Shown: positions 8,469 to 45,026, counted from the first letter of the stretch. The stretch: DNA of 64,000 bases from Nitrosopumilaceae archaeon (GCA_965214835.1 CBDCCK010000002.1:1504001-1568000), one strand, 5' to 3'. Program-made: numbers and translations. Notes: generated from the sequence alone by a model not told the origin.

Positions 8469-8475
8469 TCAGTAA

Positions 8476-8656
8476 CCATATGTGTCTCAAAAACGAAATT
8501 CAGATGGTGTCAAGATAAACGGCAGTGCAAACAGACAGATTACCGCAAAAAAGAGGGCACGTGTGAAATCAAAAGCAGTGCAGCAGCAGTATGTCGGCCT
8601 TGACGTGCACAAGGAGTCCATCCAGGTTGCGGTGATGGACAAGGACGGCAAGGTGC
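8476..8656 (+). mobile_element. Left-end fragment of the same IS110-family element as 43568-44986
   Basis: Near-identical to the reverse complement of about 44810-44986 (CCATATGTG...YVGLDVHKESIQ...KDGKV). Confidence 0.88.
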
Positions 8657-8946
8657 CACTGTTTGTCGACAACGCGTCGTATCACAGGGCCGCACTGGTC
8701 AGGGAGCAGCTGGCAGAATGGAATGGCGACGTGGTGCTAAAGTTCCTGCCGCCGTACACGCCGGAGCTGAACAAGATAGAGGGGCAGTGGCGCGGGTTCA
8801 AAAAGGCGACTGCAAACCGCCTGTATCAGACCGTCGACGAGATGCAAAAGTCCATACGCGTCATGTTGCGCAGGGGCGAGATCAAGATCTGCGAAATGAG
8901 CGATTATCTCAGCTAGATACTACAGCATGTCGTGAAACTACTGCTG
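8657..8946 (+). mobile_element. IS630 transposase C-terminal fragment
   Basis: LFVDNASYH...FLPPYTPELNKIEGQW; followed by a possible end motif AACTACTGCTG. Confidence 0.85.
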
Positions 8947-9048
8947 TTAAACCCGATCATCATCAAAAACGGTAAAAGAATCCAAGACCCCGTCCCATCA
9001 GCCTGGATTGGAATATGATCCCTCAAAACCAAAACAGACTGTTTGTGA

Positions 9049-10371
9049 TTATCTTCCCAGGCCGATCGCTTTAAAGTCAATACCTGAAAACTTTTCTGGC
9101 TCAAAGATCCTTCGCGCATCTATGACCCTTGGCCTTTTCATGATCTTCCTCAATTTGTTCTCGCCCAGTCTCCTGTACGTGTCCCATTCAGTCAAGATTA
9201 GACAGCAGTCTGAATTCTTTAAACACGACGCAACGGATTTTGAATACTCGATCTTTCCATCAAAAATTTTTTCAAAATTCGCCATTGCCATGGGATCGTG
9301 AACCTTGATTTTTATTCCCCGTCTTAACAGCAACTTGGCAATCTTTACTGAAATGGCCTCTCTGATGTCATCTGTGTCTTTTTTAAACGCAAGCCCCAAG
9401 ATTGAGACGGTTCTTCCCTTTTTGTAAACCCCCATCTCTTTCATTAGTTGAACAATCTTTTTTGGCTGTAGATCATTTACGTTTTTTACTGCCTCAAAAA
9501 ACCTGTCTGAATCAGACTGCTTTTTTGAATAGTGGATCAGCCCCTTCAAATCTTTGGGCAGACAGCTGCCGCCGAATCCAGGACCTGCTTTTAAAAACAG
9601 CGGTCCTGTGCGTGGATCCTTGCTAATCGCATACGTTATGGCATTCACATCCGAATTTGGAATATTTTGGCACACGTTTGCAATCGAGTTGATAAAGCTG
9701 ATCTTTGTTGCAAGAAACGCATTGTTTGCATATTTGATCAGTTCGGCATTCGAATAGTCCGTATGAATGACCTCGGGCATCTTTGAATAAAATTTTCTGT
9801 AATATCTTTCAAGCATCATGCCATGGGATCTCTCGTCTTCTCCTATTAAGATTAGATGGGGCTTTGACAAGTCCTTTATGGCAAATCCCTCCTTCAAAAA
9901 TTCCGGATTTACCACCAGAACTAGCCTGTCTTTCTCAATCAGCGTTTTGACTATGGGCCGAATGACATTCTTTGTGGTCAGCGGCGCCAGCGTGCTTTTG
10001 ACAACCAGCATGTGTCTTCTTTTTTTGTCTTTCAAGGCCGAGTTTATCTGGGAAACTGCCTTCTTTACAAACGAGAGGTCTATCTCTCCGGACACTTTTG
10101 ACGGGGTTCCTACTGTAAGAAACGTGATATCCGTCTCCCTTATCGATGAGATGTCCGTTGTAAATCTTATCTTTTCATTTTTTATGGATTTTTTTAGAAT
10201 ATCTTCCAATTGTGGCTCATAAAAGTCTGGAATCCCCTTTTTCAACCCGTTTATCTTTTCATCGTTACTGTCTATTCCCACCGTGTAAAACCCTTTTTTG
10301 GAATTGACCGCTGCCAGGGATAGGCCAACAAACCCCAAACCCACTACGGAAATCTTGTCCATGCCTGCCAT
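9049..10371 (-). CDS. ugd: UDP-glucose 6-dehydrogenase family protein
   Basis: VVGLGFVG, VGTP, VKST, NPEFLKEG, GFGGSCLPKD, GLAFKKDTDDIRE. Confidence 0.9.
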   Translation of the reverse strand: MAGMDKISVVGLGFVGLSLAAVNSKKGFYTVGIDSNDEKINGLKKGIPDFYEPQLEDILKKSIKNEKIRFTTDISSIRETDITFLTVGTPSKVSGEIDLSFVKKAVSQINSALKDKKRRHMLVVKSTLAPLTTKNVIRPIVKTLIEKDRLVLVVNPEFLKEGFAIKDLSKPHLILIGEDERSHGMMLERYYRKFYSKMPEVIHTDYSNAELIKYANNAFLATKISFINSIANVCQNIPNSDVNAITYAISKDPRTGPLFLKAGPGFGGSCLPKDLKGLIHYSKKQSDSDRFFEAVKNVNDLQPKKIVQLMKEMGVYKKGRTVSILGLAFKKDTDDIREAISVKIAKLLLRRGIKIKVHDPMAMANFEKIFDGKIEYSKSVASCLKNSDCCLILTEWDTYRRLGENKLRKIMKRPRVIDARRIFEPEKFSGIDFKAIGLGR

Positions 10372-10835
10372 GTTGTATTTGAACCATGATCTTGCACAAT
10401 AAATAAATATCACCTACGAAAAATTTACCCGTTTTTTGATCCTGTTGATTTTTCAGACATTTGTGCAATCCTTGCAACATCTGCTGCTTTTTGACCGTTC
10501 CCTTGCTGGAGCTGTTTTTTCATAACGCATCTGAAAAATCGTAACAGGTAGGGCCCTGGAAGTTCAGGCACGGGTTTTGCCGTCCTGGAGGTCTCCCAGG
10601 ATCCGAACTGCTGCGTCTGGCGTGTGTATCGTCTGCACCAAAATCCGGCAGGATTGCAGGCAGATCAGCGGGGATCCGACTCTTGCTGGATCCAAACCCG
10701 CCCGGTATTGGGCTTGTCGCACGTATCCCTTGACTGCTGAAAAGGGATGGAGTGTATGGGAACAGCCTTCCGCCTTTTGGACAAAGCGCCCCACCTCCCA
10801 ACTGCTTGCATGACGGGCCCGCCTTGGCGGCCTGA

Positions 10836-11915
10836 CTAGAAGCTGTCTTTCAGGATCCGGACGATTTTTTCGGATGCGCCACCGCGCCCGTATGGGGGGG
10901 GGGATCTACGTGCCCTGAGAGACGGCAGATTCGCAGCATCCATCATGGATTTCTGTATTTGTGGAGGCGATGTTCCGGCCATCAACGCATAACCGGATGC
11001 GATCGACTCTGGACGATCGGTGGTTTTTCGGATCACGACTGCCCTTTTTCTGATCGACGGTGCGGTTACCTCTTCTTGAATCCCGCCCGAGTCGGTGACA
11101 ACGAACGAGGATCTCTTCATAAGTTCCAGCATGTCAAAGTATCCTGCAGGATCCAGCAAGGTGAATCTTTTTGATCTTTTCATCTTTTCCAGGAGGCCAA
11201 GATGAGTCAGCCGCTTTTTTGTTCTGGGGTGAACGGGAAAGACAAAGCGCTGCTGTTTGCAACCAAGCAGTGCGCCGATTATCGAGGACAGGGATGCGTC
11301 GTCATCTATGTTCTCTGATCGGTGCAGGGTCAGCAGGGCATAGTCGTCGATGCCGATGTCAAGAGTGGACTTTGCCCGGGAGATCCTTGCATACCTTTCA
11401 ACAGAGTCAATCACCGTGTTTCCCGTCACGTGGATCCTTCCGTGGACGCATTCGGCAAGCAGGTTTGCCCTAGAGGTCTTTGTCGGCGCAAACAGAATCT
11501 CCGAGACGTGATCGACGCAGATCCTGTTGTGCTCTTCTGGCATCCTCCAATCGAAGCTCCTCAGCCCGGATTCGACATGGCTTACAGGAATCCTGGATTT
11601 TAGCGATGCGACAGCGGAGGCCAGAACCGTGTTTGTATCCCCCTGCACTATAACGGTGTCAGGTTTTGCCTTGTCAAGTATTTTGGAAAGCCGGATCATG
11701 ATCTCGCCCATCTGAACGGCCGGGACGGACTTTGAAACCTGCAGGGAATAGTCGGGTCTGCGCAGTCCGAGCTGCTCAATCAAGTCCATGCCCATCAAGC
11801 GATCGTAGTGCTGTCCGGAGAATATCAATGCGGAGTCTCTCTTGCGCAGCCGGCTTATGACCGGAGCAAGCTTGATTATCTCCGGCCTGGTTCCCACTAC
11901 AACGGCAGTCTTCAT
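10836..11915 (-). CDS. wecB: UDP-N-acetylglucosamine 2-epimerase
   Basis: VVGTRPEIIK, SGQHY, VQGDTNT, HVESGLRS, MPEEHNR, TDSGGIQEE. Confidence 0.93.
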   Translation of the reverse strand: MKTAVVVGTRPEIIKLAPVISRLRKRDSALIFSGQHYDRLMGMDLIEQLGLRRPDYSLQVSKSVPAVQMGEIMIRLSKILDKAKPDTVIVQGDTNTVLASAVASLKSRIPVSHVESGLRSFDWRMPEEHNRICVDHVSEILFAPTKTSRANLLAECVHGRIHVTGNTVIDSVERYARISRAKSTLDIGIDDYALLTLHRSENIDDDASLSSIIGALLGCKQQRFVFPVHPRTKKRLTHLGLLEKMKRSKRFTLLDPAGYFDMLELMKRSSFVVTDSGGIQEEVTAPSIRKRAVVIRKTTDRPESIASGYALMAGTSPPQIQKSMMDAANLPSLRARRSPPPYGRGGASEKIVRILKDSF

Positions 11916-12385
11916 AGAATAAGTATACAAACCCGGAACTTGTTATTAATTTATGCCAGTTCAGAAACCCCGATATTGTCGGATCATTTGGACAGGCACA
12001 CGGGACGCAACCCTCACTCAGACATTGACATTTTTTTGTAATCCTGCAAAACTTTCACATATGATTCTGGAGTGCCGACATCCAGCCTTTTTTCGTAACA
12101 GGCCGGGCTCTGGAAGTTCAGGCACGAATTTTACCATCAAAGAAGGCCGATCAAACAGAATTTGTGCCTGAAATCATAAATCACTTCGAGCCCGATCAGC
12201 TACTCAAAATGGCCGCCTCAGAATACTTTAGGACGTGTTCCATCAAGATTGACATCTACAAGTATCTTGAGTGCAGCGTGTGAGGCGAAATTTTCAATGA
12301 TCATCAGTATGGTTTTGATTAGTCGCCTCTCAGCCTCGGAGCTTTGCGGTGCTTTTGAGCCTGCTGAAAAAAGCAGGCCGGAGAC

Positions 12386-13370
12386 TCAAAGCATCTCCCT
12401 CATCAGATCCACAAGGGACTCGGCCGCCTTGTCGTTTGTGAGGTTCTCCAACGTGTGCCTTTTTCCGCGCGCCGCTATCTGCTCCCACTTTGGATCATCC
12501 GGAGAGGCCAGGTATTCTTCGAACCTTTTTTTGTAGTTCTTAGAGTCGATAAACACGGCGTTCTCCCCGTCACGGAATCCCAGATGTCCGCAGTCGCTTT
12601 CCTCTGAGACCTGCATGAATGTCAGGCATCCGGCAGCCGTGGACTCGTAGTACTTGACGGCGGGAAAGTACCTTGATGCAGCTATGGCTGCCCTGTACCG
12701 TGACAGGTGTGTAATAAAGTCCGGATGTCCGCCGTGCACACACGGCCCCGAATAGTCAACATATGGCAGGTTTTTGCATTTTCTCCTCAGTTTATACTGA
12801 TGCCAGATATAGGCCTCCGTGGGTCTTAAAACACTATTTTTCAGCAAATTGATGATCTTCATCCCCCCCTAGCCTGCCGGTGAGCAGGATCTGATCCTTC
12901 TTCCTGTCTTTGAATGCAGGCCCCCTGGGCAAATCGGGCTCGACGCCGTATGTTATCGTCTTGTATTTGAAGCTGCTTGGAAAGTACTTGTAAAAGTAGC
13001 TCCGTGGCATAAAGTTGAAACAGCAGTCGATCTTCCATTTTTCGTGAAATCCAATCAGATCCCAATGTCTTATACGGTGGGGATCGTGCGTATGGGCGAT
13101 CACCGGAATGTCAAGCTTTCTGACGTTTTCCAGGTGGGGCGTGCTCATGTCGCTGTTGGTGCACAGTATGACGTCATATCTGCCCCTGAGCTTTGCCGCA
13201 TCAAAGCTCCGTTCTGCGGGAAAATAGCCCATCTGCAGATGCCTGTTTCTTTTCAGGGCGTGAAAGAAAAAATAGTACCTGTTGTTAATGGAGTTGCTTT
13301 TGTTATAGTATCCCCACGACGGCCTGTAGATAAAGGCCGCCCTGATCTGGTTTTCTTCGGATTCGCTCAT
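12386..13370 (-). pseudogene. CgeB-like glycosyltransferase, frameshifted at a G7 tract (copy A)
   Basis: ORFs 12834-13370 and 12386-12862 join in frame if the run at 12863-12869 is 6 nt; KYYESTAAGCL, GFRDGENAVFI, IAARGKRHTL. Confidence 0.75.
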
Positions 13371-13408
13371 TTTGACCTCCTTGGCTGGGAATCCTGCCTT
13401 TTTATATT

Positions 13409-13488
13409 AGACCTTATGCATAATCGACCTGAATGAGGCGAGTTTGTTCGCAATAATCCTAGATCTGAACCGATTACGCATAAAGTCT
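13409..13488. mobile_element. 80 bp MITE
   Basis: TIRs AGACCTTATGCATAATCG / CGATTACGCATAAAGTCT with ATT duplication; absent from duplication arm B, which gives the empty site. Confidence 0.85.
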
Positions 13489-13590
13489 ATTTTACAGCCT
13501 CATGCGAAGTCTAATGCCTCTGGGTTTCATCTGAATTGCAATCCCAGCTGCAACTTCAAGCCGTTCGACCATGATGATCTGGCGTAGTAT

Positions 13591-13765
13591 CTACGTCAGC
13601 CATCTGTTCATCTTTACCATCTTTATCTCGCCTCTGCGCAGCATGACGCGTATGGACTTTTGCAGCTCGCCGACGGTCCTGTACAGGCGGTTTGCAGTCG
13701 CCTTTTTGACCCCACGCCACTGCCCCTCTATCGGGCTCAGCTCCGGCGTGTACGGCGGCAGGAAT
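13591..13765 (-). pseudogene. IS630 transposase C-terminal fragment
   Basis: FLPPYTPELSPIEGQWRGVKKATANRLY, homologous to 8740-8916. Confidence 0.85.
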
Positions 13766-13953
13766 TAGGCGACATCCATCCATGGTAAAACGCCCGCCAG
13801 TAACATGGCAACGTTCCTTTCGTCTTCTGATCCGTGCCTAGTCGGCCGGGCCGTGCTTTATAGCTAACGCTAGCAATACGCACGAGCCAGTCCTGTCGCA
13901 CCTGCCAGGGTGCGGCCGATCATTGGGTGGGTGGGGGATGGAAGGTGGTAATC

Positions 13954-15031
13954 CTATGCCGTTCCCACCAGTTCTGTCACCCTCTTGATCTTCCTGTCGT
14001 ACAGTGCAGCATTGCGCGATGAATACGCAGTCTTTGTCGTCAGCATGTGCCAGATTATCCTGAGCATCTTGTTTGCAACATGCGTTATCGCTATGACGTG
14101 GCTGTTGCCGTTCCTTTTGCGGATCCTCTCGTAGAACTCTTTCATCCTGTCGTCGTGCTGTGCGGCGACGTTGGCTATCTGGCCCATCAGCCATTTGATC
14201 CTGCGGTTTGCATCCTTTTTCATGCGGCCGTGGTACTCGCGGTCCCCAGACTGGTACACCCGGGGACACATGCCGGCCCAGGACACCAGATGATTCGGTG
14301 ATGGAAACCGGGTTATGTCGCCGATCTCTGCCAGCAGCAGCATTGCAGCAAACGAGTCTATCCCCGTCATACTCAGCAGCAGCTTTGCGTCCTCGTTCAG
14401 TCCCGCCTGTCTTCCTATGTCCTCCTCCATCTGGCCTATCTCCTCTGTGACCGATGCAATCCTCCGGGTACAGCTTGCCAGTATCCTGTTGTCGTTTGGC
14501 ATGTCCAGTTTTGTCTCGGACAGCTTCCGTATGGCCTTCCTAGAGTACATCGTGGATGCATCTATGGTTATGTCGTACTTGTCAAGCCAAGCTGTGCAGC
14601 CCGTTTACGACTGCGGTCCTCTCCTGCACCATCCGTATCCTGTACCTCATCAGCTCCCTGACATCCCTCAGGTCTGGAGGGGCCACGTAGCATCGTGGTA
14701 TGATTCCGGCCCTGAGCGTGTCGGTTATCTTCCTTGCGTCTATCGGGTCAGTCTTTACGCTGGTCTCCGATACTATCTTCATCTTGAGGGTGTTTGCAAG
14801 CAGTATGGGGATATGCTGATCCTCGAACGCCCTGAACGTCTTCAGCCACGTGTTGCCCGTTGACTCGCACGCGGCCTGGCACCTTTTGTACTCTTTTTTC
14901 AGCCTGGCTGCAAGCCTTGCTGCCTCCTTGTACGTGTTGTCATACGAGCCCTCCTCCAGTACGTGTCCCTTGGCGTCGATGACGCACACTACACATCTTC
15001 TCTTTCCAATGTCTATTCCTATGTTTATCAA
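13954..15031 (-). pseudogene. IS110 recombinase with a single 1-nt frameshift near 14588
   Basis: GIDIGK, ACESTG, KTDPIDA in one frame; LDKY...AGMCPRVYQSG in the next. TTG start at 15031 with GGAGGTG upstream. Confidence 0.88.
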
Positions 15032-15068
15032 TCCTTTTGTTTCACCTCCTCTCGGATCATGGTTCGAC

Positions 15069-15204
15069 GGATCAGAAGCTGCAGTCATCCATCAGTGCGC
15101 GAAGCACAGGAACACAGCAGCGCGGATATCCCCATTCAACTACGAGTGCGCGAAGCACATGAAAATGAAGGGGTTGATCCATCACCCTGACTACGGCGGG
15201 GGTG
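15069..15204 (-). ncRNA. Predicted bridge RNA of IS110 element B (left-end encoded)
   Basis: Two copies of hairpin AGTGCGCGAAGCACA (15094-15108, 15145-15159), each inside a closed internal loop whose strands match the element junctions. Confidence 0.75.
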
Positions 15205-15343
15205 TTTTTATCATGTGTTCAACTACTGCTATAGTGACGATTAAAAGTTTTTGAGCGCATGTGGGCATAAGCTACGCTGGAAGGCGCCTTTTGATGATCA
15301 AAGACTTTTAATCGCCACTATAGGAGAAGAATTCCTGATACAC

Positions 15344-18715: not shown

Positions 18716-18716
18716 G

Positions 18717-20450: not shown

Positions 20451-20751
20451 CTGCGTCATGACACGAGCTGCATGCAGCAGCTTGATCTGATCAACACACC
20501 TGTGTTTGGAAAACCATGCGGAATTTTTAATCGCGGTCGATTGCGCATAAGGTCCAGTTGCCATACGGGGCAGGTCACGGTATGATGCGAGTCCGGATGG
20601 GATCGTCTCCGGTGGGAGATGGAGTCAGTCCTTACCGTATGCTGACTTGTGGTCACACACTCGTAGCAGTTCTATTGCTCCAGCTTGATATTGAATAAAG
20701 TATATGTATGGGGTCACCTACCCCTGCCAATCAGGCACGAATTGATATCTA

Positions 20752-21857
20752 TAGCAACGAGCATAAGTCTTTGAGCCAAAACAAGGTCATTCGAAAGGTA
20801 TAATGATCACGTAACTGGCGCAGTATGTATGACAAAAGAAACAGACATTCTGTCAGAGGCCATGCGCAAAGAAAAGGATGTCAAAGTCTACAAGAAGATC
20901 ATGGCGCTGATGTTTGTGCTAGAAGACGACATGGGCGTACCCGAGACTGCAAGAAAGATCCGGTGCAGTGAGAATTCCGTGCGCAACTGGCTGGCGAGGT
21001 TTTCGGAGGGCGGCATAGACGGTCTCCGGGATCTTCCCCGTTCCGGATGCAGACCAAAGGTGGACAGAGAAAGTATTGCAGCCATAATGGATCTGTCCAC
21101 TGCATGCAAAAGTACCGATGTCATGACGGTACGCGATGACATAAGGAATGCCACCGGGATAGAATACAGCATAGAGCATGTCCGAAGACTGATGTGCCAG
21201 CACGGCCTGTCGCGCCGCAAGGTGCAAAACATACATGTCAACCATGCCACCCCAAGCTCGGTATACTCGTGGCAGCGATACCTTGAAAACGTGCGGATTC
21301 CGTGCCTGAAAAACGACGGTTTTACGCTGGTGTCATCTGATGAGGCGTTCTTCGTGCAGGGCGCATACGACAGATACATGTGGGGTCCGGTCGGCACCAG
21401 AAGCGTGGCATCGTATTCGGGGGATCACACAAAGGTGGCCGTGTTTGGAAGCATCGCAGAAGACGGCAGAAGGCTATTCAGGACGTTTACGGGATCGTTT
21501 ACGTCGGTGCAGTTCATAGAATGTCTGGAGGCGCTGCGCATCAAGTTTGGCAAGGTTGCAGTCTTTTGTGATAGGTGGAGTGTGCACAGATCTACTGATG
21601 TCGCAGAATATCTGGCGGGCCATCCCGACGTCAGACTGATAATGATTCCGAAAGGATCGCCGTACCTCAATATCGTGGAAGAATGCTGGAACCTGGGCAA
21701 ACATTTTGTTTTCAGGGGGATAGTGTACAGAAGGATCAGCGAGCTGCGGCACACCATATCCGAATATTATAGGACGGTGTCATTTGCCCACCTTTGCATG
21801 TACAAGTACATTTACAGATCGCCGGTCAAAGCCCTCAATTACTTGTGACCGTTGCTA
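20752..21857 (+). mobile_element. IS630-family element
   Basis: Ends TAGCAACG / CGTTGCTA flanked by TA. Confidence 0.88.
20829..21848 (+). CDS. IS630 transposase
   Basis: N-terminal HTH, SDEAFF, CDRWSVH, PKGSPYLNIVEECW. Confidence 0.9.
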   Translation: MTKETDILSEAMRKEKDVKVYKKIMALMFVLEDDMGVPETARKIRCSENSVRNWLARFSEGGIDGLRDLPRSGCRPKVDRESIAAIMDLSTACKSTDVMTVRDDIRNATGIEYSIEHVRRLMCQHGLSRRKVQNIHVNHATPSSVYSWQRYLENVRIPCLKNDGFTLVSSDEAFFVQGAYDRYMWGPVGTRSVASYSGDHTKVAVFGSIAEDGRRLFRTFTGSFTSVQFIECLEALRIKFGKVAVFCDRWSVHRSTDVAEYLAGHPDVRLIMIPKGSPYLNIVEECWNLGKHFVFRGIVYRRISELRHTISEYYRTVSFAHLCMYKYIYRSPVKALNYL

Positions 21858-22334: not shown

Positions 22335-22903
22335 TTAGCCTAGACAGAGTCCTTGCTTAGGCCGGCGTTCTGGATTATCATCTTCCTCTTGTTTGTACCG
22401 TCCACGCTTATCAGGTTCGATTCTGCCGGGAACCGGATCTGCCAGGTCGCGCCCGCTGCACGTGCCGCACCTGTCAGGCACGTGGCTCATTTCCCGGGTC
22501 GGGCGCCTCTTGTGTGATACGCCCTTGTGTCCGGGTTTTTGGCCCGGCCTTGCCGGTGCCCTGCCCGGTTCCCTTGCCGCAGTCGCCTTTTTCTGCCTGG
22601 TCGGTATCGAGTTCTCCGATGACGGGCTGTGCGGGTTCTCATAAAATTCGATGCGGTGTTTGAGCTGCTTGATTTGTGACGCCTGCATCTAGATTAGTGC
22701 GGCATCATCGGCCTGCCTTATGGCAGATGCCATCCTCTCCATATCAAGCTCCTCCTGCGTCTTCTGAAGCTCCGCCCTAGCGCAGGCCATCTCTTTGCTT
22801 AATGCATTGAATTCCGAGGCTGTAGGCATGTATTTTCTTGGTATTGATAGTTTATAGATCAGACGGTCACGAAAAATTAACTAGGCAGGGGCTATCCTAT
22901 TAC
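22335..22903 (-). mobile_element. IS66 left-end remnant
   Basis: TIR GTAATAGGATAGCCCCTGCCTAG (22903-22881); MPTASEF...* ...FYENPHSPSS...PGHKG...CGTC, then truncated. Confidence 0.85.
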
Positions 22904-23208
22904 GCTATTTTTAATAACCGCACCCGACTTGTCACTATAATGAATGTACTATGTGCTGTCATGCGGCAGGCAGTTCCTGTCAAATCCCTCGTGATTGGTG
23001 GTGGTGGGGTGGATCTAGCTGATTTAACCATGTCTGCACTATTTTTCTGTCAAAGACATGGTGATTGTAGGGTGGGGAGGAGGATCAGTCTTGGCCCCTA
23101 CGTCGCGGTGGCAGGATGGCCTCACCGGGACGGTCGTGACGCACTAGTACATGATCCGGACTCTGGCGGCATGGGGGCATGCACGCAGGAGGGCCATACT
23201 AGCACGGC

Positions 23209-35784
<12,576 letters not shown>

Positions 35785-36425: not shown

Positions 36426-36830
36426 TTACCTGACATCATCAGGGTTAGTCGACCAAGGATCTATAGAATATGTTTCAGTTTGTCCATCAATTTTTAATTT
36501 CCACAAATTGATTAAATCTCTGCCTAAGAGAACATAGTTTTTTGGCATTGCAACCACCTCAAAACGATCAAACTTTATTTCTCCAATTTGTATGGCTACG
36601 AAATAATTGAAATGCTTTGATTTCATCCCGCTTACAGATTTCACAATCGTCTCTCCAGTCTTTTTCAGTTTCAGTGTGGTGACTAGGTAATCCGGTATTA
36701 CAGTATGGCTTGCACCTGTGTCGATTTTTCCTTTTTCTGGAAAAGACCTACCGTATTTATTCCATACAACTAGATCTAGGATCAGAGAGCTGGGGTTGTC
36801 ATTCCTGTCATGCCTAAATTGTAGTGTCAA
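36426..36830 (-). CDS. Retropepsin-like (clan AA) aspartic protease
   Basis: KIDTGASHTVIP and C-terminal VLLGRDLI. Confidence 0.85.
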   Translation of the reverse strand: MTLQFRHDRNDNPSSLILDLVVWNKYGRSFPEKGKIDTGASHTVIPDYLVTTLKLKKTGETIVKSVSGMKSKHFNYFVAIQIGEIKFDRFEVVAMPKNYVLLGRDLINLWKLKIDGQTETYSIDPWSTNPDDVR

Positions 36831-38672: not shown

Positions 38673-38776
38673 TGCCTGATACCTTCCATTTTGGGGATAA
38701 AACGTACTGAGTGAAAAAATACCACAAAGGAATCGATTAATACAGACTATTTTAGGGGGCGATCCCAAGCCGTATC

Positions 38777-39544: not shown

Positions 39545-39709
39545 AGGCCCGGGCCTATGGGCGCCATGGCCATCACCCGGAGAAGACAGTCGGGCAGGAA
39601 GCAGGAGAACCTGCCGGTGCCCGAGCGGCTCATCGACTTTTCTGCCAACATGCCCGGAACAGATTCAGACTATAGCAACGAGCAGAAGTCTTTGAGTCAA
39701 AACAGGATC

Positions 39710-39750
39710 GTACGAGGTCATGAAACTGGTTTAGGAACGTGACCTCGTAC
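39710..39750. mobile_element. Minimal IS66-type TIR pair (41 bp)
   Basis: GTACGAGGTCA / TGACCTCGTAC. Confidence 0.6.
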
Positions 39751-39881
39751 AGGTTTGCGCGCGTCCAGATCCGCGTCGGCGGCTGCGACGTCAAGGCGTA
39801 CGGGTATCACGCAGTCGTCGGGGGAAGGAGCATGGACGAGATACTGGCGGCAGTCTCCAAGCTGAAAAGGTACGTAAGGAA

Positions 39882-40280
39882 ATGAACCTCTCCTCCGAAT
39901 ACCTGGCAATCTTCCTTGCGGCCGGCGTCATCGTCCCCGTCGTGCTGGCGGCGGCATTCAGCTCCGGGCAGTTTGACATTGACCGGCTTGACCTGCAGGT
40001 GAGCGCCGAGGCCAGGCGCCTGTCCCTGTCAGGCGACGTGCTCCTGAGCTATTCGCTGCACAACATCGGCAACGTGGACATAACCGGCCTGTCTGTCAGC
40101 ACCCCGTCTGACCTGGCAGTGGATCAGCCGGATTCCAGCCTACCAGCAGGAAAATCGTCCGGACTGATATCGGGAATAGTGGACGGCGCCGAAGGGGCCA
40201 CGCACGTGACCCTCATAGTGGATGCGTCGGGGACCGACGGCAGCACCATAGTCAGGACCAAGGTAGTCGAGATACGGTGA
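39882..40280 (+). CDS. Membrane-anchored protein, possibly archaeal pilin-like
   Basis: N-terminal hydrophobic helix after SSE; LHNIGNVDI beta-rich domain. Confidence 0.55.
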   Translation: MNLSSEYLAIFLAAGVIVPVVLAAAFSSGQFDIDRLDLQVSAEARRLSLSGDVLLSYSLHNIGNVDITGLSVSTPSDLAVDQPDSSLPAGKSSGLISGIVDGAEGATHVTLIVDASGTDGSTIVRTKVVEIR

Positions 40281-40436
40281 GCCCGTCCCCGCCTGCATGC
40301 CGGACAAGAAAATCAGGATTCCGGCCGCAGATCGGATCGAAGATCGCCCACCCCTCTCCCGACCGTGGGGTACGTTCCCAGCACCGGCGCGCAAGAAACG
40401 ACAAACCCTTAATTATTCAAGGGTGGAAGGCAGAAC

Positions 40437-40646
40437 ATGAAGACGGTTCAGGTCTACAACGTCAAAGTCACAGAACATTCTGAGGGGTTTACTGGGCAGT
40501 GTCTGGAACTTCCGGGGGCAATTAGCGAAGGAAAGACCCTAGGTGAACTACAGGCCAACATGAAGGAAGCCGTAGATCTGGTTTTAGAAGAGATTGAAAG
40601 ATCCTCCAAATCAGGAACGATTACCATCGAAATAGTTCGAGACTAG
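40437..40646 (+). CDS. HicB-family antitoxin
   Basis: CLELPGAISEGKTLGELQANMKEAV. Confidence 0.9.
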   Translation: MKTVQVYNVKVTEHSEGFTGQCLELPGAISEGKTLGELQANMKEAVDLVLEEIERSSKSGTITIEIVRD

Positions 40647-40649
40647 GCA

Positions 40650-40925
40650 ATGAGTCTGTACAACCATGATTGGCGCAAGGTCATAAGAGCTCTGGGCAGG
40701 TTCGGCTTTGTGGTGACAAGGCAGAGAGGGAGTCACCTGATTTTGAAAAAAGACGGAAAAATAATCTCCGTTCCAAGACACTCTCCAATCGCAATGCCAA
40801 CACTGCGCAGCATTCTTGCCCAAGCTGGAATCCCAGAAGATGACTTTGTAAGTATGAGGTCACCTACCCCTCACAATAGGGTAAACATTACTGACGGTGC
40901 TGATCCTTATACTATGATCGCGTAG
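40650..40925 (+). CDS. HicA-family toxin with its last codons displaced by IS66
   Basis: GFVVTRQRGSHLILK, VPRH. The native ending FVRLL* is at 42487-42505. Confidence 0.88.
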   Translation: MSLYNHDWRKVIRALGRFGFVVTRQRGSHLILKKDGKIISVPRHSPIAMPTLRSILAQAGIPEDDFVSMRSPTPHNRVNITDGADPYTMIA

Positions 40926-42486
40926 ACTAGGCATTGTGAAAGGTCAGCTCTCCGCATGCTACGAGATCAAGGCATCTACAGCATCGCCCACGGAGACGAT
41001 AAAGAATCTAAAAAAGGACCTCAAGGAGCGTGACAATATCATTGAGGAGCAGGGCAGGACCATTGAAAGGCTAAACAAGACACTTGAAAAGCGCGACAAG
41101 ACCATCAGGGAGCAGGACAACCGGCTCCGGTACTACGAGAACGAGAACTCGCCCCCGTCGGCAGACTCGCTGGAGTGGAAGAGGCAAAAGGCGCAGAGGA
41201 GAAAGGAGAGGGCCCGGCCCGATGCTGCAGCCGGGGATGACGGCACCGGGGAGGACAGAAAAAAGCCCGGCGGCCAGAAGGGCCACAAGGGCGTATCGCG
41301 CACCCACCGGCCCACTAGGGTACAGAAACACTGCTTTCCGGGTGGACGGGCGCCGGAGTGCAAGTGCGGCACCACCACAGAGATCATGAAAAAGCCGCAG
41401 GTGCGCGACATGATAGGATTCAAGATAAAGTACACCGAGACGCGCCACGAGACACAGAGGGCAGTGTGCCCGAAATGCGGCACCATGCATACTGCCCCCG
41501 ACGGCCTGCCCCGACGCGGCAGCTATGACACGAGCGTGGTCACAGCCGTCACAAAGCTGCGCAGCGAGGGCGTCCCACACAACAGGATCCCGGGTATAAT
41601 GTCAGATATCCTGGGCGTGCACATGTCAAAGTCAACTGCAATCAACAGCATAGGACGCGTCTGCGACGCCGCAAAGGCGCCTGCCGAGGCCATCGCAGAG
41701 GAGGTAAGAAGCTCAAAGACCGTCTGCATAGACGAGACGGGGATCAACCTGGCAGGCAGGCTGGGATGGGCGTGGGCCATGCTGTCGGCGGTGGGCGTGT
41801 TCATGATATATGCAGACACCAGGAGCGCCCGGATCCTGGACCAGTACATGGGCGGGTACGGGGGCGTCGTCACATCGGACGGATATCCCGCATACAAGAG
41901 GTTCGGGCTGCTGGGAAGGCTCCAGCGGTGCTGGGCGCACGAGCTGCGGTTCCTCCTGTATGGCTCGCAGAAAAAGGGCGCCCTGCTGTTTGCAGGAGTC
42001 CTGTACCGGCAGATGCAGCAGCTGTTCAAGGATGCCAGGGAGTGTCTTGAGGGCTGGGACAAGCTGTCCGGGGAGGATCTCCGGGAGCTCGAGGAGAGGA
42101 CGGGGATAAGCAGTGCCGACGGACTGATGGGGCGGCACTCGCCGGAGCTGCGCCGGCGGTTTGAGACCAACATGCAGAACATGCTGTTCGGATACGTTGA
42201 TGCATGGGGCGGCCCGCTGGAGCCCCTTCTCAAGAGGATGCACAGGGCCCTGCCGTGCATGTTTGCGTTTCTGGAATACGAGGGTGTCGAGCCGACCAAC
42301 AATGGTGCAGAGCGGGCGCTGCGCCCCGTCGTACTTCAATTCAAGATAAGCGGCCAGATCAAGGGCGGCCTGGTCTGGACGGAGAGGCATGGATGGCTCA
42401 ATACATGCGTGTCGACATGGAAGCTGCAGGGCAAGTCCATCATGGATGAGGTGGCCAAAATAATCTAGGGGTAGGTGACCACATAC
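40852..42486 (+). mobile_element. IS66-family element
   Basis: TIRs GTATGAGGTCACCTACCCCT / AGGGGTAGGTGACCACATAC; 8 bp duplication CTTTGTAA. Confidence 0.95.
40936..42468 (+). CDS. IS66 transposase
   Basis: ENENSPPS, PGGQKGHKG, CIDETG, SDGY, QRCWAH, EPTNNGAERALR. Confidence 0.92.
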   Translation: MKGQLSACYEIKASTASPTETIKNLKKDLKERDNIIEEQGRTIERLNKTLEKRDKTIREQDNRLRYYENENSPPSADSLEWKRQKAQRRKERARPDAAAGDDGTGEDRKKPGGQKGHKGVSRTHRPTRVQKHCFPGGRAPECKCGTTTEIMKKPQVRDMIGFKIKYTETRHETQRAVCPKCGTMHTAPDGLPRRGSYDTSVVTAVTKLRSEGVPHNRIPGIMSDILGVHMSKSTAINSIGRVCDAAKAPAEAIAEEVRSSKTVCIDETGINLAGRLGWAWAMLSAVGVFMIYADTRSARILDQYMGGYGGVVTSDGYPAYKRFGLLGRLQRCWAHELRFLLYGSQKKGALLFAGVLYRQMQQLFKDARECLEGWDKLSGEDLRELEERTGISSADGLMGRHSPELRRRFETNMQNMLFGYVDAWGGPLEPLLKRMHRALPCMFAFLEYEGVEPTNNGAERALRPVVLQFKISGQIKGGLVWTERHGWLNTCVSTWKLQGKSIMDEVAKII

Positions 42487-43170
42487 CTTTGTAAGACTCT
42501 TGTAATCTTTTTCTGTGACCGAACCATCTTTTCTGCCGCCATCACGCCGTACTTGAAATCCCAGCCAAGTGAAACGTGCCAAAAATCGGGCAAAACCGAG
42601 GCCGGACGGGAGGGCACGGCGTCCCGGCAACAAGACAAAAGCGGCAACCCGTCACGTCTTATCTGACAGGATGCCATCGCGTTTTTTTCGATGTCTTACC
42701 CTGCCGTGCGACTGTACGAGGAATTTCAGGATGCTCTGATCATTGGCGTATATGTACCGAACTGTTTTTTCAAGACTGGATTCGGTTCTTTGCGCCATGG
42801 CCGTATGCGGTACTGGCGCCACTGCCGGTTATAACTTGTTCGGGGGAAGGTCCTGTCAACTCATGGCGCAACCGTTCCCGGCGTTGACCGCCGGGTGATG
42901 CAGGAGGGTGTGGCGGCTGTCCAGCTTTTGAATCCTCCGTTTCTGCGTTTATTAACAAAACCCTGTTTGGGATGGCACGTCAGATGGAGATATCCACGGC
43001 GACGCCAGGCCTGCCACGTCAAGGCTGTGGTGGGTCGCGCACGTGTTCTTCTGGGTGATATCGGGGCTGGTATGCTATCTTGTGTGGAAGGAACGCAACA
43101 ATGATGCCGTAAAAAAACACCTCATCCACTTGCTATGGATTCCGATTGTCATTTACGGAGTCTTGATGGT

Positions 43171-43288
43171 GTAACAGGTTAGCCCCTGCCTAGGTAGCAA
43201 TCAGGCGCGAATCTGCCTGCAGTTGTGATTTTCATGCCTGTCCGGCAAGGGACGCAACTCCAACTCTAGGCAGGGGCTAACCTGTTAC
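43171..43288. mobile_element. IS66-derived MITE (118 bp)
   Basis: Perfect 23 bp TIR GTAACAGGTTAGCCCCTGCCTAG. Confidence 0.88.
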
Positions 43289-43567
43289 TATTTGATGCGT
43301 TGCTCGAGCTGCCTGTTTTCTGCCGTCAGCGCCGCGATTTGTGCGGCAGAGGCGGCCCTGTCGGATTCGCATCCTGCCTTCTCGGCGGCAAGATCCTCCT
43401 GCGTCTTCTGAAGCTTGCCTTGCGTCTTCTGATGCTCCGCTTTTTCGCGGGCAAGCTCCCTGTATAGTGCCTTGAATTCCGAGGTTGTATGCATGTATTT
43501 TCTTGGTATTGATAGTTTATAGATCAGACGGTTGCAAAAAATTAACTAGGCAGGGGCTATCCTATTA
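43289..43567 (-). mobile_element. IS66 left-end remnant, paralog of about 22700-22903, with its TIR split by IS110
   Basis: MHTTSEFKALYRELA... and TIR body CTAGGCAGGGGCTATCCTATTA. Confidence 0.85.
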
Positions 43568-43652
43568 TCTATGTGTCGTGTTTATAAGGATTCCACGCGC
43601 AACTGGGTTGTGAGGCATGGCCTTGGCTGGGGGTCTTTCCTGACAATCACAA

Positions 43653-43781
43653 GATGAAGGTCGGACATTTATCTATACGAGGATCTCCCTCAGCACCATT
43701 CTTCATCCATTTATTAGAACTGTTCTGCAGTTACTAAACGAGGATCTCCCTCAACTAGGATAACGCAGATTAAAGTTCTAA
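43653..43781 (-). ncRNA. Predicted bridge/seek RNA of IS110 element A (right-end encoded)
   Basis: Two copies of ACGAGGATCTCCCTCA (43677-92, 43738-53) inside stems GATGAAG/CTTCATC and TTAGAACT/AGTTCTAA; loop strands match donor and target. Confidence 0.75.
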
Positions 43782-43876
43782 CCGTAATGATGACGACACT
43801 CATTTCACATATCCCAATGCATGGCGGATCGCCGGGAGGGCGGCAGGGCAGGAGGTGAGACAACAGCACGTCTCCT

Positions 43877-44980
43877 TTACGCACCCCCTATGCACTGATT
43901 GAAGGTCATCTGCTTCTTTAGCATCCAGTATGATATGCGCAGCAGCTTGGATGCGGCAGCCACCGTAGCCTTGGACCTTCCTCTCCTCTTTGCAAGCCTC
44001 TTGTAAAAGACAGATACCGGCGAGCCTGGCGGCGCGTATCTTACGTGGCTGTGCACCGACTCCACCAGGAACCATCTCATCATGGGGCTGCCCCTCTTTG
44101 TTATCCTGCCATAGTGGACGGTGTCTGCAGAGTTTCTCACCGATGACACCAGTCCTGCATACGCGCACAGCTTGTGCGAGTCGGCAAACCTGTCAACGCC
44201 GTCTATCTCCGATGCAACAGTCAGCGCGGTGTACCTGCCAAATCCCGGAGTCGACGACAGCAAGACGGCATCCGGGCTGTCGGCTATTGCGTCCTTGATG
44301 CGCAGATCAGCGCGTGCCATCCTGTCGTTTATAGAGTCAATTATGCCCAGCCTGTCATCTATCCTAAAATTGCCCAGCCTTCTCACCCTTGAGATCCACG
44401 GTGCCGAGAACGGGTCTCCTCTTATCTGTATCCTGTTTTGCAGCAGTATTGCGTGTATCTGGTTCTTTAGTATGGTTCTTGACTGCACCATCTTTGCGCG
44501 GTGCCTAGTCAGCTGCCTGTTCTGTACCGTCTTGCTAGATGGAGCATAGCACGCAGATATGTATCCTCCCCTGAGAAGATCTGCCAGGATCTGCGCGTCT
44601 ACCTTGTCGGTCTTTTTCTTTGACGTTGCAATGACCTTGGTCTCAAACGGGTTTGAGAGGATCACGTCTTGCTTGAGATCGTCTGCAATGAACCTGAACA
44701 GCCCGTACCACACGGAGGACGACTCCATGACGCACTTGGCGTTCTCCGGGATCCTTGCAAACGCCTTCCTTATCTCGCTGTCCCTGTTGCGGATTCTTGT
44801 GTTGCTCAGCACCTTGCCGTCCTTGTCCATCACTGCAATCTGGATGGACTCCTTGTGCACGTCCAGGCCGACATACTGCTGTTGCACCGCCTTTTTCATA
44901 CGTATCCTTTTTTTTGAGGCAATCTGTTTGTTTGCATTGCCTTTTATTCTGGCACCATCTGAATTTCGTTTTTGAGGCAC
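43877..44980 (-). CDS. IS110-family DEDD recombinase
   Basis: VGLDVHK, VMESS, KTDKVDA, YAGL..SVRNSA, GRITKRG. Confidence 0.95.
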   Translation of the reverse strand: MPQKRNSDGARIKGNANKQIASKKRIRMKKAVQQQYVGLDVHKESIQIAVMDKDGKVLSNTRIRNRDSEIRKAFARIPENAKCVMESSSVWYGLFRFIADDLKQDVILSNPFETKVIATSKKKTDKVDAQILADLLRGGYISACYAPSSKTVQNRQLTRHRAKMVQSRTILKNQIHAILLQNRIQIRGDPFSAPWISRVRRLGNFRIDDRLGIIDSINDRMARADLRIKDAIADSPDAVLLSSTPGFGRYTALTVASEIDGVDRFADSHKLCAYAGLVSSVRNSADTVHYGRITKRGSPMMRWFLVESVHSHVRYAPPGSPVSVFYKRLAKRRGRSKATVAAASKLLRISYWMLKKQMTFNQCIGGA

Positions 44981-45026
44981 ATATGGTTACGCTATTTTTA
45001 ATAACCGCACCCGACTTGTCACTATA

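What the first reader, a model, noticed from the sequence alone, without database searches (positions are those of the whole stretch)
8469..44990. Both IS110 guides appear programmed against the ends of other IS families
Seen: element A sits at the G-TAA tip of the IS66 TIR GTAATAGGATAGCCCCTGCCTAG, intact at 22881-22903, with a variant GTAACAGGTTAG in MITE 43171-43288. This would explain why only GTAA of the left guide is consistently matched, and the 8476 fragment also follows GTAA. Element B sits in TA-TAGCAGTAGTT (15233-15221). That resembles the IS630 end TA-TAGCAACG and shares AACTACTGCT with the end of the IS630 fragment at 8936-8945, and a same-strand IS630 tail lies on its other side. 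Established: IS4321/IS5075 target Tn21-type IRs. Inferred: RNA-guided hyperparasitism that uses multiplying IS ends as safe sites and may immobilise those elements. The IS630 case is weaker than the IS66 case.
Basis: partly seen in the sequence, partly recalled or inferred. Interest (0 to 1): 0.78.

Follow-up and report, generated by a model that had tools for sequence, protein, structure and literature searches.

The report
IS110 elements aimed at transposon ends
Two RNA-guided IS110-type jumping genes in this archaeal genome carry guide sequences that match the very tips of other jumping genes, a known habit of this family, seen here in several lineages at once.

Summary

Element A (window 43568-44986) is an intact IS1111-like IS110 element. 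It sits after GTAA at the tip of an IS66-family terminal inverted repeat (TIR). An uninterrupted paralogous site at 22881-22903 fixes its ends to the base. A 9-nt loop segment in its 3' non-coding region pairs with TIR bases 5-13. In the closest relative genome, 4 of 5 A-like copies sit at the same TIR position with a matching guide.

Element B (13777-15221) is a frameshifted IS110-type copy with a two-loop bridge RNA in its 5' end. That string is not an IS630 end. Full IS630 copies begin differently. It is the exact tip of a 1368-bp ISH3-like element. The window copy keeps only the left half-site.

Sister lineage B1 differs in both target guides. In 10 of the 14 B1/Bx 3' junctions it sits in IS5-family TIR tips. 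A third lineage targets a MITE tip.

IS110 members that target transposon inverted repeats are already known (IS4321/IS5075, IS1383). Immobilisation of the host elements is untested.

The parts
43568..44986 (-). Element A: IS110-family (IS1111-like) insertion sequence, 1419 bp, single copy at this identity
   Evidence: Ends are fixed by the uninterrupted paralogous site. Related copies at 87-89% lie at C2:1472858-1473970 and on contig C1.
43877..44899 (-). A transposase, 340 aa from the ATG at 44899 (ORF listed as 43877-44980 from an upstream GTG)
   Evidence: PF01548 3e-26 and PF02371 1.1e-18. NF033542, 221 bits against cutoff 140.
43725..43768 (-). A target-binding loop: stem CUGC/GCAG, 5' side GUUAUCCUA (43756-43764), hairpin GAGGGAGAUCCUC, 3' side GUUUAGUAA (43731-43739)
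   Evidence: GUUAUCCUA pairs with TAGGATAGC of the IS66 TIR (8 Watson-Crick pairs plus 1 G:U). The 6-mer varies among copies with the flank.
43653..43707 (-). A donor-binding loop: stem GAUGAAG/CUUCAUC, AUGGU (43695-43699) complementary to the 5' end, AUAGAUAA (43669-43676) identical to the 3' end plus core
   Evidence: Read. The same layout is seen in 18 relatives.
43565..43567 (.). TTA copy at A's 3' junction (core region); second copy at 44987-44989
   Evidence: The two BLAST arms overlap by 3 nt on the empty site, 22900-22902.
43546..43567 (-). IS66-family TIR interrupted by A (its terminal base is C at 44990 on the + strand)
   Evidence: The adjacent 43289-43490 (-) reads as the N-terminus of an IS66-type transposase (read).
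22881..22903 (-). Uninterrupted paralogous IS66 TIR GTAATAGGATAGCCCCTGCCTAG: the empty site
43171..43288 (.). 118-bp IS66-type MITE with GTAACAGGTTAG ends
8476..8657 (+). A-family 5' fragment (182 nt) preceded by GTAA (8472-8475), fused to an internal IS630 fragment (8658 to about 8927)
13777..15221 (-). Element B: IS110-type copy with TG core at both ends, 92% identical to the B1 copies and 87.7% to the intact copy B513
   Evidence: Ends come from 8 other full copies and from uninterrupted targets.
13954..15088 (-). B transposase in two frames (14582-15088 and 13954-14550), split by a 1-nt insertion shared with all B1 copies
   Evidence: PF01548 8.3e-26 and PF02371 1.5e-26. Frame break.
15130..15173 (-). 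B target-binding loop: UCAUUUUCA (15160-15168) and GUAGUUGAA (15135-15143) around hairpin GUGC-UUCGC-GCAC
   Evidence: These are the hypervariable blocks in an otherwise conserved RNA. They covary with the flanks. Structure support.
15076..15123 (-). B donor-binding loop: UGUGUUC (15110-15116) complementary to the 5' end, AUGGAUGA (15085-15092) identical to the 3' end plus core
15222..15228 (-). Left half-site CAGTAGT: the first 7 nt of the ISH3-like ISx TIR, matched by B's left guide over GTAGT plus TG
   Evidence: 5 of 6 Bx-type 5' junctions read CAGTA|GTTG.
13580..13776 (-). B's right flank: 12 nt GATGTCGCCTAA, then the C-terminal tail of an IS630 transposase. It is not the predicted AAAATG half-site.

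Best explanation
Both elements are IS110-family insertion sequences. They choose their insertion site through a non-coding RNA with two internal loops (a bridge RNA, also called seekRNA). One loop pairs with the element's own joined ends. The other pairs with the target on both sides of a short core.

In this genome the target loops are complementary to the outermost 10-18 bases of the terminal inverted repeats (TIRs) of other resident transposons:
- Element A: RNA in the 3' non-coding region, IS1111-like, core within TAA. It recognises G-TAA-TAGGATAGC, bases 1-13 of an IS66-family TIR. It has inserted there, 420 nt upstream of a giant gene.
- Element B: RNA in the 5' non-coding region, core TG. 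It carries guides for CAGTAGT-TG-AAAATG, the tip of a 1368-bp ISH3-like element. The window copy is frameshifted. It retains only the left half-site, because its right side has been rearranged.
- B1, a sister lineage, differs from B in both target guides but not in the donor loop. It sits in TAGNCTGT-TG-CATAAC, the tip of an IS5-family element and its 80-bp MITEs.
- B3, a further lineage, targets the tip of a roughly 90-bp MITE.

Shown here: the insertion positions, the empty or uninterrupted targets, the guide-target complementarity and its covariation, and the RNA fold conservation.

Inferred: that the RNA is made and bound by the transposase (by analogy with IS621, ISEc11 and others); that TIR tips are favoured because they are neutral, numerous and self-renewing sites; and any effect on the host element.
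For: Family membership and element A:
1. A and the intact B513 score 221 and 234 bits on NF033542 against cutoff 140. Both Pfam domains are present.
2. An empty site for A shows a 3-nt overlap of the two arms.
3. A-clade guide covariation: Awin AUCCUA with TAGGAT, 6 of 6; contig C1 copy AAACUA with CAGTTC, 4 of 6; A191 GAUGUA with AACATC, 5 of 6.
4. In the relative genome, guide AACCUA matches TAGGTT in L010 and L011 (6 of 6) and matches 5 of 6 in L008 and L009. 4 of 5 3' junctions there lie in IS66-type TIRs.
5. Across 18 elements of the clade, the longest guide-flank complement averages 5.78 nt for cognate pairs against 4.44 for 298 non-cognate pairs. Matches of >=6 nt occur in 10 of 18 cognate pairs against 28 of 298 non-cognate pairs. 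The elements are kin, so this overstates independence.

B family:
6. Uninterrupted B1 targets TAGNCTGTTGCATAAC give 51 hits at <=1 mismatch to the 12-mer.
7. 10 of 14 B1/Bx 3' junctions read TG|CATAAC, in three different TIR contexts.
8. B1 guides are CGUUAUGCA and CCUGUUGAA. Bwin and B513 guides are UCAUUUUCA and GUAGUUGAA. These are the only clustered differences in the 5' end.
9. B513 sits in CAGTAGT-TG-AAAATGCACCCCATTTTTAAGTGTCT, an ISx-type TIR.
10. Relatives in two other genera show the same covariation. G004: guide GUC with flank gtc in 3 copies, and guide UUU with flank ttt in 1 copy. G010: UUCAUUUG and CCUUUG match their flanks.
11. B3 guide GUCUUCCCA matches TG-GGAAGAC in 3 of 6 3' junctions, and at 6 of 7 bases in a fourth (GGAAAAC).
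12. B-family RNA fold: 94.2% of cells are paired, 7 pairs change on both sides, 0 of 500 shuffles reach this, and slid controls give 26-50% paired.

Target elements and literature:
13. Tips of the target elements are fixed by TSDs: ISx 5 bp in 6 of 7 pairs; IS66-type 8 bp in 19 of 31 pairs; ISy 8 bp in 5 pairs. Families are assigned.
14. The flank bases beyond the guide match are conserved too (CA in CAGTAGT, TAG in TAGNCT). This is expected if the sites are TIR tips.
15. The mechanism and the loop layout agree with the literature. The NCR lies 3' in IS1111 types and 5' in IS110 types, and the order of the top- and bottom-strand matches is reversed between them (sections 5, 8 and 12 of bioRxiv 10.1101/2024.04.26.591405; passages of PMC11208160).
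Against: - Only 2 of 6 A-family 3' junctions in this genome lie in IS66-type TIRs.
- Awin is single-copy. Its guide matches the minor TIR variant GTAATAGGAT (12 genomic sites, 6 of them in TIRs), not the common GTAATAGGTT or GTAACAGGTT.
- 76 IS66-type ends at <=1 mismatch stand uninterrupted.
- A's left guide matches only GTAA.
- The window's B copy lacks the predicted right half-site and has a broken reading frame, so it is a relic and not a working example.
- Among Bx-type copies, only 1 of 3 3' junctions (B513) lies in an ISx-type TIR.
- Several decayed fragments have guides that no longer match their flanks (655671, 3124524, 504222, 2915636).
- MFE folding of B's 5' end alone is unremarkable (z -0.61).
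- Nothing shows that the RNA is expressed.
- No Rfam family matched the window (0 hits at gathering thresholds).
Confidence: 0.85

Rival explanations
1. One reading: its guide is aimed at the end of an IS630-family element. B inserted into the left TIR of the IS630 whose tail still lies beside it.
For: An IS630 C-terminal tail lies on the same strand directly 3' of B. AGCAGTAGTT recurs at 8936-8945 near another IS630 fragment.
Against: - Full copies of this IS630 (about 1145 bp; 3 full-length and 3 more with left ends) begin TAGTAACTATGTG... and end ...GATACTAC(G).
- The 8936-8945 string lies outside the element.
- The other IS630 in the window begins TAGCAACG.
- 0 of 14 B1/Bx 3' junctions lie in an IS630 end.
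- The 15-mer spelled by the guides is the exact tip of ISx.
- Twelve bases that are not IS630 separate B from the IS630 tail.
Confidence: 0.03
2. The mechanism is the same, but there is no parasitism. Guides drift, and any lineage whose guide happens to match a multi-copy neutral repeat multiplies and is therefore what we see. Transposon tips are simply the commonest such repeats here. Insertion neither harms nor exploits the host element (safe-site commensalism, as with REP or attC targeting).
For: - The genome is packed with repeats: 76 IS66-type ends, 60 ISy-type ends and 31 ISx ends, 106 sites of the B3 target at <=1 mismatch and 141 MITEz ends.
- Most tips are unoccupied.
- Sibling A copies with other guides sit outside IS66 TIRs.
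- REP and attC targeting by family members is established (titles in the reference lists).
Against: At least four lineages all hit the outermost bases of TIRs and not repeat interiors. The A lineage keeps the same TIR position in a second genome. This suggests more than drift, but the argument is weak. Nothing here measures an effect on the host elements.
Confidence: 0.3
3. The association runs the other way or is inherited. Either the IS66/IS5-type elements inserted next to IS110 ends, or a few composite units (host element plus IS110) were copied by the host transposase or by segmental duplication.
For: - The A locus itself lies in an old segmental duplication.
- Three B1 copies lie in the same 80-bp MITE subtype.
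- In relative G010, two IS110 copies share both MITE arms with different 8-bp TSDs. This fits either composite transposition or two targeted insertions.
Against: - The empty paralog shows the TIR existed before A.
- B1 splits the TIR, leaving 8-10 tip bases on one side and the rest on the other. Only insertion of B1 into a TIR can produce that.
- B1 copies occupy three kinds of TIR context and three tip variants (TAGCCT, TAGTCT, TAGACT) at 10 different places.
Confidence: 0.04

Closest known systems
[quoted passage not shown]
   Same: A DEDD transposase with the long non-coding region 3' of the gene, subterminal inverted repeats, and oriented insertion at one fixed position inside another transposon's TIR. 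Element A shares all of these.
   Different: The host is an archaeon (relatives are Nitrosopumilaceae). The target is an IS66-family TIR, hit after its first 4 bases. Protein identity to these bacterial elements was not measured here.
IS1383, which integrates into the inverted repeats of IS1384 in Pseudomonas putida H (Muller, Lauf & Herrmann 2001; title only, in the reference list)
   Same: An IS110-family element whose specific target is the inverted repeat of another insertion sequence. This is the same relationship as B1 with ISy and Bx with ISx.
   Different: Here several lineages in one genome are each matched to a different IS family, and the guide change between sister lineages is visible. 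I could not read the paper, so positions within the repeat cannot be compared.
IS621 bridge RNA (Durrant et al. 2024, PMC11208160, passages read) and the seekRNAs of ISEc11, ISPa11, ISKpn4 and ISEc21 (Siddiquee et al. 2024, sections 5, 8 and 12 of the preprint read)
   Same: A two-loop RNA in a non-coding end. One loop is for the target and one for the donor, each with a strand-specific left and right guide around a short core. The RNA lies 5' in IS110 types (B) and 3' in IS1111 types (A).
   Different: The cores differ: TG in B and within TAA in A, against CT in IS621. The natural targets are transposon tips and not REP elements. None of this is tested at the bench for these elements.

Membership tests
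IS110 family (RNA-guided DEDD transposases) | N-terminal RuvC-like DEDD domain plus C-terminal Tnp domain | tested here: met
   PF01548 and PF02371 are present in A and in both halves of B. NF033542 gives 221 bits (A) and 234 bits (B513) against cutoff 140.
IS110 family (RNA-guided DEDD transposases) | No long terminal inverted repeats; a short identical core at both junctions instead of a conventional TSD; sequence-specific target | tested here: met
   A has TTA at both junctions and an empty site. B has TG at both junctions and uninterrupted targets.
IS110 family (RNA-guided DEDD transposases) | Non-coding RNA with target- and donor-binding loops complementary to target and ends | tested here: met
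   Complementarity, covariation with flanks and a conserved fold are shown. Expression and protein binding of the RNA are not testable with these tools.
IS1111 group (element A) | Long non-coding region downstream of the transposase gene | tested here: met
   A has 87 nt 5' of the ATG and 309 nt after the stop codon.
IS1111 group (element A) | Subterminal inverted repeats of 7-17 bp | tested here: inconclusive
   Only a 6-nt contiguous inverted match (TATGTG/CACATA), 7 of 10 overall, lies 2-4 nt from the ends (read).
IS110 group (element B) | Bridge RNA in the left (5') end | tested here: met
   Both loops lie within element nt 51-148, upstream of the ORF. B also has a 177-nt 3' region whose role was not examined.
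   Full IS630 copies begin TAGTAACTATG.... The string is the tip of an element with a 5-bp TSD whose best NCBIfam match is ISH3 (111 bits, below cutoff 225) and which carries Pfam DDE_Tnp_1.
IS66 family as A's target | The TIR belongs to elements that encode an IS66 transposase and make 8-bp TSDs | tested here: met
   The 1.6-1.9 kb elements with these TIRs encode NF033517 at 201 bits against cutoff 180. An 8-bp TSD is found in 19 of 31 end pairs.

The most novel reading that the evidence does not exclude
In Nitrosopumilaceae genomes, IS110-family elements may form a guild of RNA-guided parasites of transposons. Each lineage's target loop is tuned to the outermost bases of a different resident transposon family: IS66, IS5, ISH3-like, or a MITE. 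Lineages would switch host transposon by coordinated changes in both target guides while the donor loop stays fixed (B1 against Bx). The expanded B1 lineage shares a frame break but keeps its own guide RNA. It would then be either a non-autonomous 'guide-only' rider on another copy's transposase or dependent on a +1 frameshift at GCU-UGA-C. Insertion would cap or disable the host element's end, so these elements would act as a check on transposon spread in IS-rich symbiont-like genomes.
Probability: 0.3. Interest if true: 0.7.

Novelty: new member of a known kind. Interest (0 to 1): 0.5.

Why it matters
IS110 recombinases are being engineered as programmable genome-editing tools. Natural cases that show how guides are reprogrammed are therefore useful. 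Here two sister lineages, 92% identical, differ in both target guides and sit in the tips of two different transposon families. This is a clean natural reprogramming event, with the donor loop as an internal control.

The finding also extends the 'IS that targets another transposon's inverted repeat' habit from bacterial plasmid transposons to archaea, and to several IS families in one genome. It offers a testable system for asking whether such insertions disable the host transposon.

For annotation, it explains the nested IS debris in this window. It also corrects a wrong target assignment: the target of B is ISH3-like, not IS630.

Tried and rejected
- Rfam at gathering thresholds on the whole window gave 0 matches. 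No curated bridge-RNA family picked these up.
- MFE folding of B1's 5' end alone was not better than shuffles (z -0.61). A's 3' end folded better (z -3.34), but the MFE paired the two guides with each other, so I relied on comparative evidence.
- Sequencing runs: no RNA holder was listed. Contigs of four runs laid on 43300-45300 showed a joint 43564->44987 (skips 1422, 3 shared letters, side 24) in X1 and X4. The genome holds a paralogous empty site with the same letters, so I do not count this as excision. Loose ends at 43565-43567 and 43546 show A-like 3' ends next to other sequences in those runs, including one that reads like an IS66-type MITE interior. These are short contigs and may come from the sample the relatives were assembled from, so I do not count them as support.
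- I first took B513's right flank as AATATG from a MAFFT misalignment. The direct junction scan shows AAAATG.
- I first placed A's 3' end one base off (43569). The BLAST arithmetic and the joint give 43568.
- I checked whether the many solo 5' fragments of A reflect a systematic mechanism. Their break points differ and abut various other repeats, so I read them as ordinary decay by later insertions and deletions.
- I considered that the IS66 TIR might be part of A's own end. This is rejected because other A copies lack it.
- My first script for the guide-flank control failed on a wrong pattern and was corrected. L019 and L034 dropped out of that count because the donor-loop anchor was not found. 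By eye their guide UGAACUCG matches their flanks at 8 of 8 and 7 of 8.
- Composite transposition against independent targeted insertion in G010 (L070/L086) could not be told apart.
- Literature: my searches found no paper on IS110 targeting in Thaumarchaeota (47 papers held >=4 of 5 terms, 12 were listed, none relevant). Supplements of papers were closed and not consulted. The target tables of Siddiquee et al. and Durrant et al. may already list archaeal IS110 targets.

Full report
WHAT IS IN THE WINDOW

The window is G000:C2:1504001-1568000 of a 3.22-Mb, two-contig genome with 52.6% G+C. The nearest relatives of its IS110 transposases are in Nitrosopumilaceae MAGs.

The span named in the finding holds the following:
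- An intact IS110-family gene at 43877-44980 (-) (element A).
- A split IS110-family gene at 13954-15088 (-) (element B).
- An IS630 gene at 20829-21848, and an IS630 fragment at 8482-8916.
- An IS66 transposase at 40936-42468.
- Two giant ORFs.

ELEMENT A: ENDS AND TARGET

BLAST of 43500-45050 against the genome split into two arms. The arms meet, with a 3-nt overlap, at window 22835-22963. A longer comparison gives 43421-43567 ~ 22756-22902 (87%) and 44987-45216 ~ 22900-23123 (85%).

This is an old duplication of the region upstream of the two giant genes. One copy is empty and the other carries A. A proper is therefore 43568-44986 (1419 bp), with TTA on both sides.

In A's orientation the site reads ...AAAAATAGCG-TAA-[A]-TAA-TAGGATAGCCCCTGCCTAG. 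The empty site reads ...GCG-TAA-TAGGATAGCCCCTGCCTAG.

GTAAYAGGNTAGCCCCTGCC is the terminus of 1.6-1.9-kb elements that encode an IS66-family transposase (NF033517, 201 bits against cutoff 180). It is also the terminus of 118-bp MITEs. An 8-bp TSD in 19 of 31 end pairs fixes G as the first base.

ELEMENT A: THE GUIDE

A has 87 nt before its ATG and 309 nt after its stop codon, which is the IS1111-type layout. In the 3' region there are two stem/internal-loop/hairpin units with the same hairpin, GAGGGAGAUCCUC.

The first unit (43725-43768) carries GUUAUCCUA on its 5' side. This pairs with TAGGATAGC, TIR bases 5-13 (8 Watson-Crick pairs plus one G:U). On its 3' side it carries GUUUAGUAA. Only GUAA of that segment equals the left flank plus core.

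The second unit (43653-43707) carries AUGGU, complementary to A's own 5' end. It also carries AUAGAUAA, identical to A's 3' end plus core. This is the donor loop.

The 6-mer in the first unit differs among copies and follows their flanks:
- Awin: AUCCUA with TAGGAT, 6 of 6.
- Contig C1 copy: AAACUA with CAGTTC, 4 of 6.
- The internally deleted copy at C2:191521-192102: GAUGUA with AACATC, 5 of 6.

ELEMENT A: CENSUS AND A SECOND GENOME

In this genome, 11 of 12 A-family 5' junctions follow GTAA, with unrelated sequence further out. That is what one expects if the left side of the target is the outside of a transposon.

Of 6 3' junctions, 2 lie in IS66-type TIRs: Awin, and a relic at C2:1267408 in a variant TIR, again with TAGGAT at the same offset. 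The other 4 do not.

In the closest relative genome (MAG record OZ243974.1, 83% protein identity), 5 of 5 full copies follow GTAA. There, 4 of 5 3' junctions read TAA-(C/T)AGG(T/A)TAGCCCCTG..., and three of them sit inside 118-bp-type MITEs. Their guide is AACCUA, which complements TAGGTT, the common TIR variant.

More distant relatives (49-57% identity) keep the two-loop layout with other guides. In 18 elements the longest guide-flank complement averages 5.78 nt for cognate pairs against 4.44 nt for 298 non-cognate pairs. These are kin, so the contrast is illustrative and not a formal test.

ELEMENT B: ENDS, CORE AND RNA

Eight other full copies (the B1 lineage, 98-100% alike, about 92% to the window copy) and one intact copy (B513 at C2:513240-514651, with a 378-aa ORF) define the ends.

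Uninterrupted B1 targets read TAGNCTGT-TG-CATAAC. Occupied ones read TAGNCTGT-TG-[AACACATG...CCATGGA]-TG-CATAAC. The core is therefore TG.

The 5' end holds a two-loop RNA:
- Target loop: CCCCU / [right guide] / GUGC-UUCGC-GCAC / [left guide] / UGGGG.
- Donor loop: GAGCUGC / UGUGUUC... / GUGC-UACGC-GCAC / ...AUGGAUGAA / GCAGCUU.
- In the donor loop the two segments match the element's own 5' end and its 3' end plus core.

In an alignment of 10 copies from three genera, the only hypervariable blocks are the two target guides. The proposed fold has 94.2% of cells paired and 7 pairs with changes on both sides. None of 500 shuffles reaches this, and sliding the partners drops pairing to 26-50%.

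ELEMENT B: WHAT THE GUIDES SPELL

B1 has CGUUAUGCA (complement of TG-CATAAC) and CCUGUUGAA (equal to CCTGT-TG plus the first two bases of the IS).

The window copy and B513 have UCAUUUUCA and GUAGUUGAA.

I recovered full copies of the IS630 subfamily that flanks B. They are about 1145 bp, begin TAGTAACTATGTGTAGTAACC and end ...GATACTAC(G). The prediction fails for IS630. The AACTACTGCT at 8936-8945 lies 9 nt outside that element.

CAGTAGTTGAAAATG is instead the exact terminus, on both ends, of a 1368-bp element:
- It has 31 ends at <=1 mismatch.
- 6 of 7 end pairs have a 5-bp TSD.
- Its transposase has Pfam DDE_Tnp_1 and matches ISH3 best (111 bits, below cutoff 225).

B513 sits in CAGTAGT-TG-AAAATGCACCCCATTTTTAAGTGTCT, a variant of that TIR. 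Five of 6 Bx-type 5' junctions read CAGTA|GTTG with variable sequence before it. The CA lies beyond what the guide pairs with, as expected for a TIR tip.

The window copy keeps this left half-site (15222-15228). Just outside it is a TA-flanked 92-bp palindromic repeat. On its right, however, come 12 bases (GATGTCGCCTAA) that resemble the tip of a very abundant repeat (141 ends). These are fused to the inside of an IS630 gene. That side has been rearranged, so the window copy is a relic.

SISTER LINEAGES

Of 14 B1/Bx 3' junctions:
- 10 read TG|CATAAC.
- 1 is B513.
- 3 are other sequence, including the window copy.

The CATAAC flanks fall into three contexts. These are an 80-bp MITE and the two ends of a 1.2-1.5-kb element. 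That element has an 8-bp TSD and an IS5-family transposase (NF033579, 166.7 bits against cutoff 140).

A more distant lineage, B3, has guides GACUUCUGAA and GUCUUCCCA. It sits in ACTTC-TG-GGAAGAC, with 3 of 6 3' junctions exact. This is the tip of a roughly 90-bp MITE (106 sites at <=1 mismatch).

Relatives in two other genera show the same guide-flank covariation.

HOW IT MOST LIKELY WORKS

By analogy with IS621 and the seekRNA elements, the non-coding RNA would bind the transposase. It would pair with the circularised element's junction through the donor loop and with the target through the target loop, and strand exchange would occur in the core. I read passages of PMC11208160 and sections 5, 8 and 12 of bioRxiv 10.1101/2024.04.26.591405.

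What the sequence shows is the outcome of that process. There is exact, oriented insertion at sites complementary to the loops. The loops change together with the sites.

That transposon tips are favoured because they are neutral, numerous and replenished is inference. So is any disabling of the host element. After A's insertion the TIR still reads A-TAATAGG... instead of G-TAATAGG.... Whether that end still functions is unknown.

COMPARISON AND NOVELTY

IS110-family members that target the inverted repeats of other transposable elements are on record. IS4321/IS5075 target Tn21-type repeats. IS1383 targets IS1384's repeats. I saw only the titles, in reference lists. One of these papers is not held.

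The RNA-guided mechanism has been known since 2024. This finding is therefore a new member of a known kind. The fresh points are:
- An archaeal host.
- Several lineages in one genome, each matched to a different transposon family.
- A natural guide switch between sister lineages.
- A shared frame break in an expanded lineage.

One search for IS110 targeting in Thaumarchaeota found nothing relevant among the 12 papers listed of 47.

VERDICT

Interest is moderate.

Noticed in passing
window 14560-14600; all B1 copies, e.g. L006: All B1 copies and the window's B share a 1-nt insertion relative to the intact B513. It gives ...AGC TTG GCT TGA C... Skipping one base at GCU-UGA-C restores ...DKYDI... 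The lineage has nevertheless spread to about 10 sites at 98-100% identity. Possible readings are a +1 frameshift at a stop, a split recombinase, or mobilisation in trans with its own guide RNA.
   Followed up: partly
window 23209-35784 and 45413-60019: Two giant ORFs (4191 and 4868 aa) have internally repetitive, mutually similar 5' parts. Their upstream regions are paralogous (85-87%), and each carries an IS66 left-end fragment.
   Followed up: no
window 15231-15322: A 92-bp palindromic repeat (TATAGTGACGATTAAAAG... ends, TA on both sides) directly abuts B's left half-site. About 30 related copies exist in the genome. It looks like an IS630-type MITE, but the family was not checked.
   Followed up: no
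window 13765-13776; genome-wide: GGGGTTGTCGCCTAATTC is the tip of a very abundant repeat family (141 ends at <=1 mismatch to a 13-mer). A 12-nt piece resembling it separates B from the IS630 tail. A full end of the same repeat truncates an A fragment at C2:1795616.
   Followed up: partly
window 8476-8927: An A-family 5' fragment is fused at 8657/8658 to the inside of an IS630 gene. The IS630 copy at C2:1681722-1681986 is truncated within 28 nt of the same point.
   Followed up: no
genome C2, 34 places: tblastn finds 34 IS110-type loci in 3.2 Mb. Few are intact: Awin, the copy at C2:1472970-1473965, B513, and distant ones near C2:312336 and C2:1651339. Short solo 5' ends of both families are common.
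   Followed up: partly
L070 and L086 (relative G010): Two IS110 copies lie at the same place inside the same TIR-bearing short element. That element is flanked by different 8-bp duplications (CAAACACA, AACCTTAC). Either the composite moved as a unit or two copies were hit independently.
   Followed up: partly
L019, L020, L034 (relatives); window 20707-20745: Distant A-clade elements abut TA-CGAGTTCACGTCCCC-like flanks. These resemble the tip of another repeat family also present in this genome (..TACGAGGTCACGTCCC.., ..GGGGTCACCTACCCC..). Transposon-tip targeting may be widespread in the clade.
   Followed up: no
window 36426-36830: An ORF with a retroviral-type aspartyl protease domain (PF13650, PF13975, PF00077) lies in a low-G+C (41.8%) stretch at 36-38 kb, next to unannotated ORFs.
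   Followed up: no
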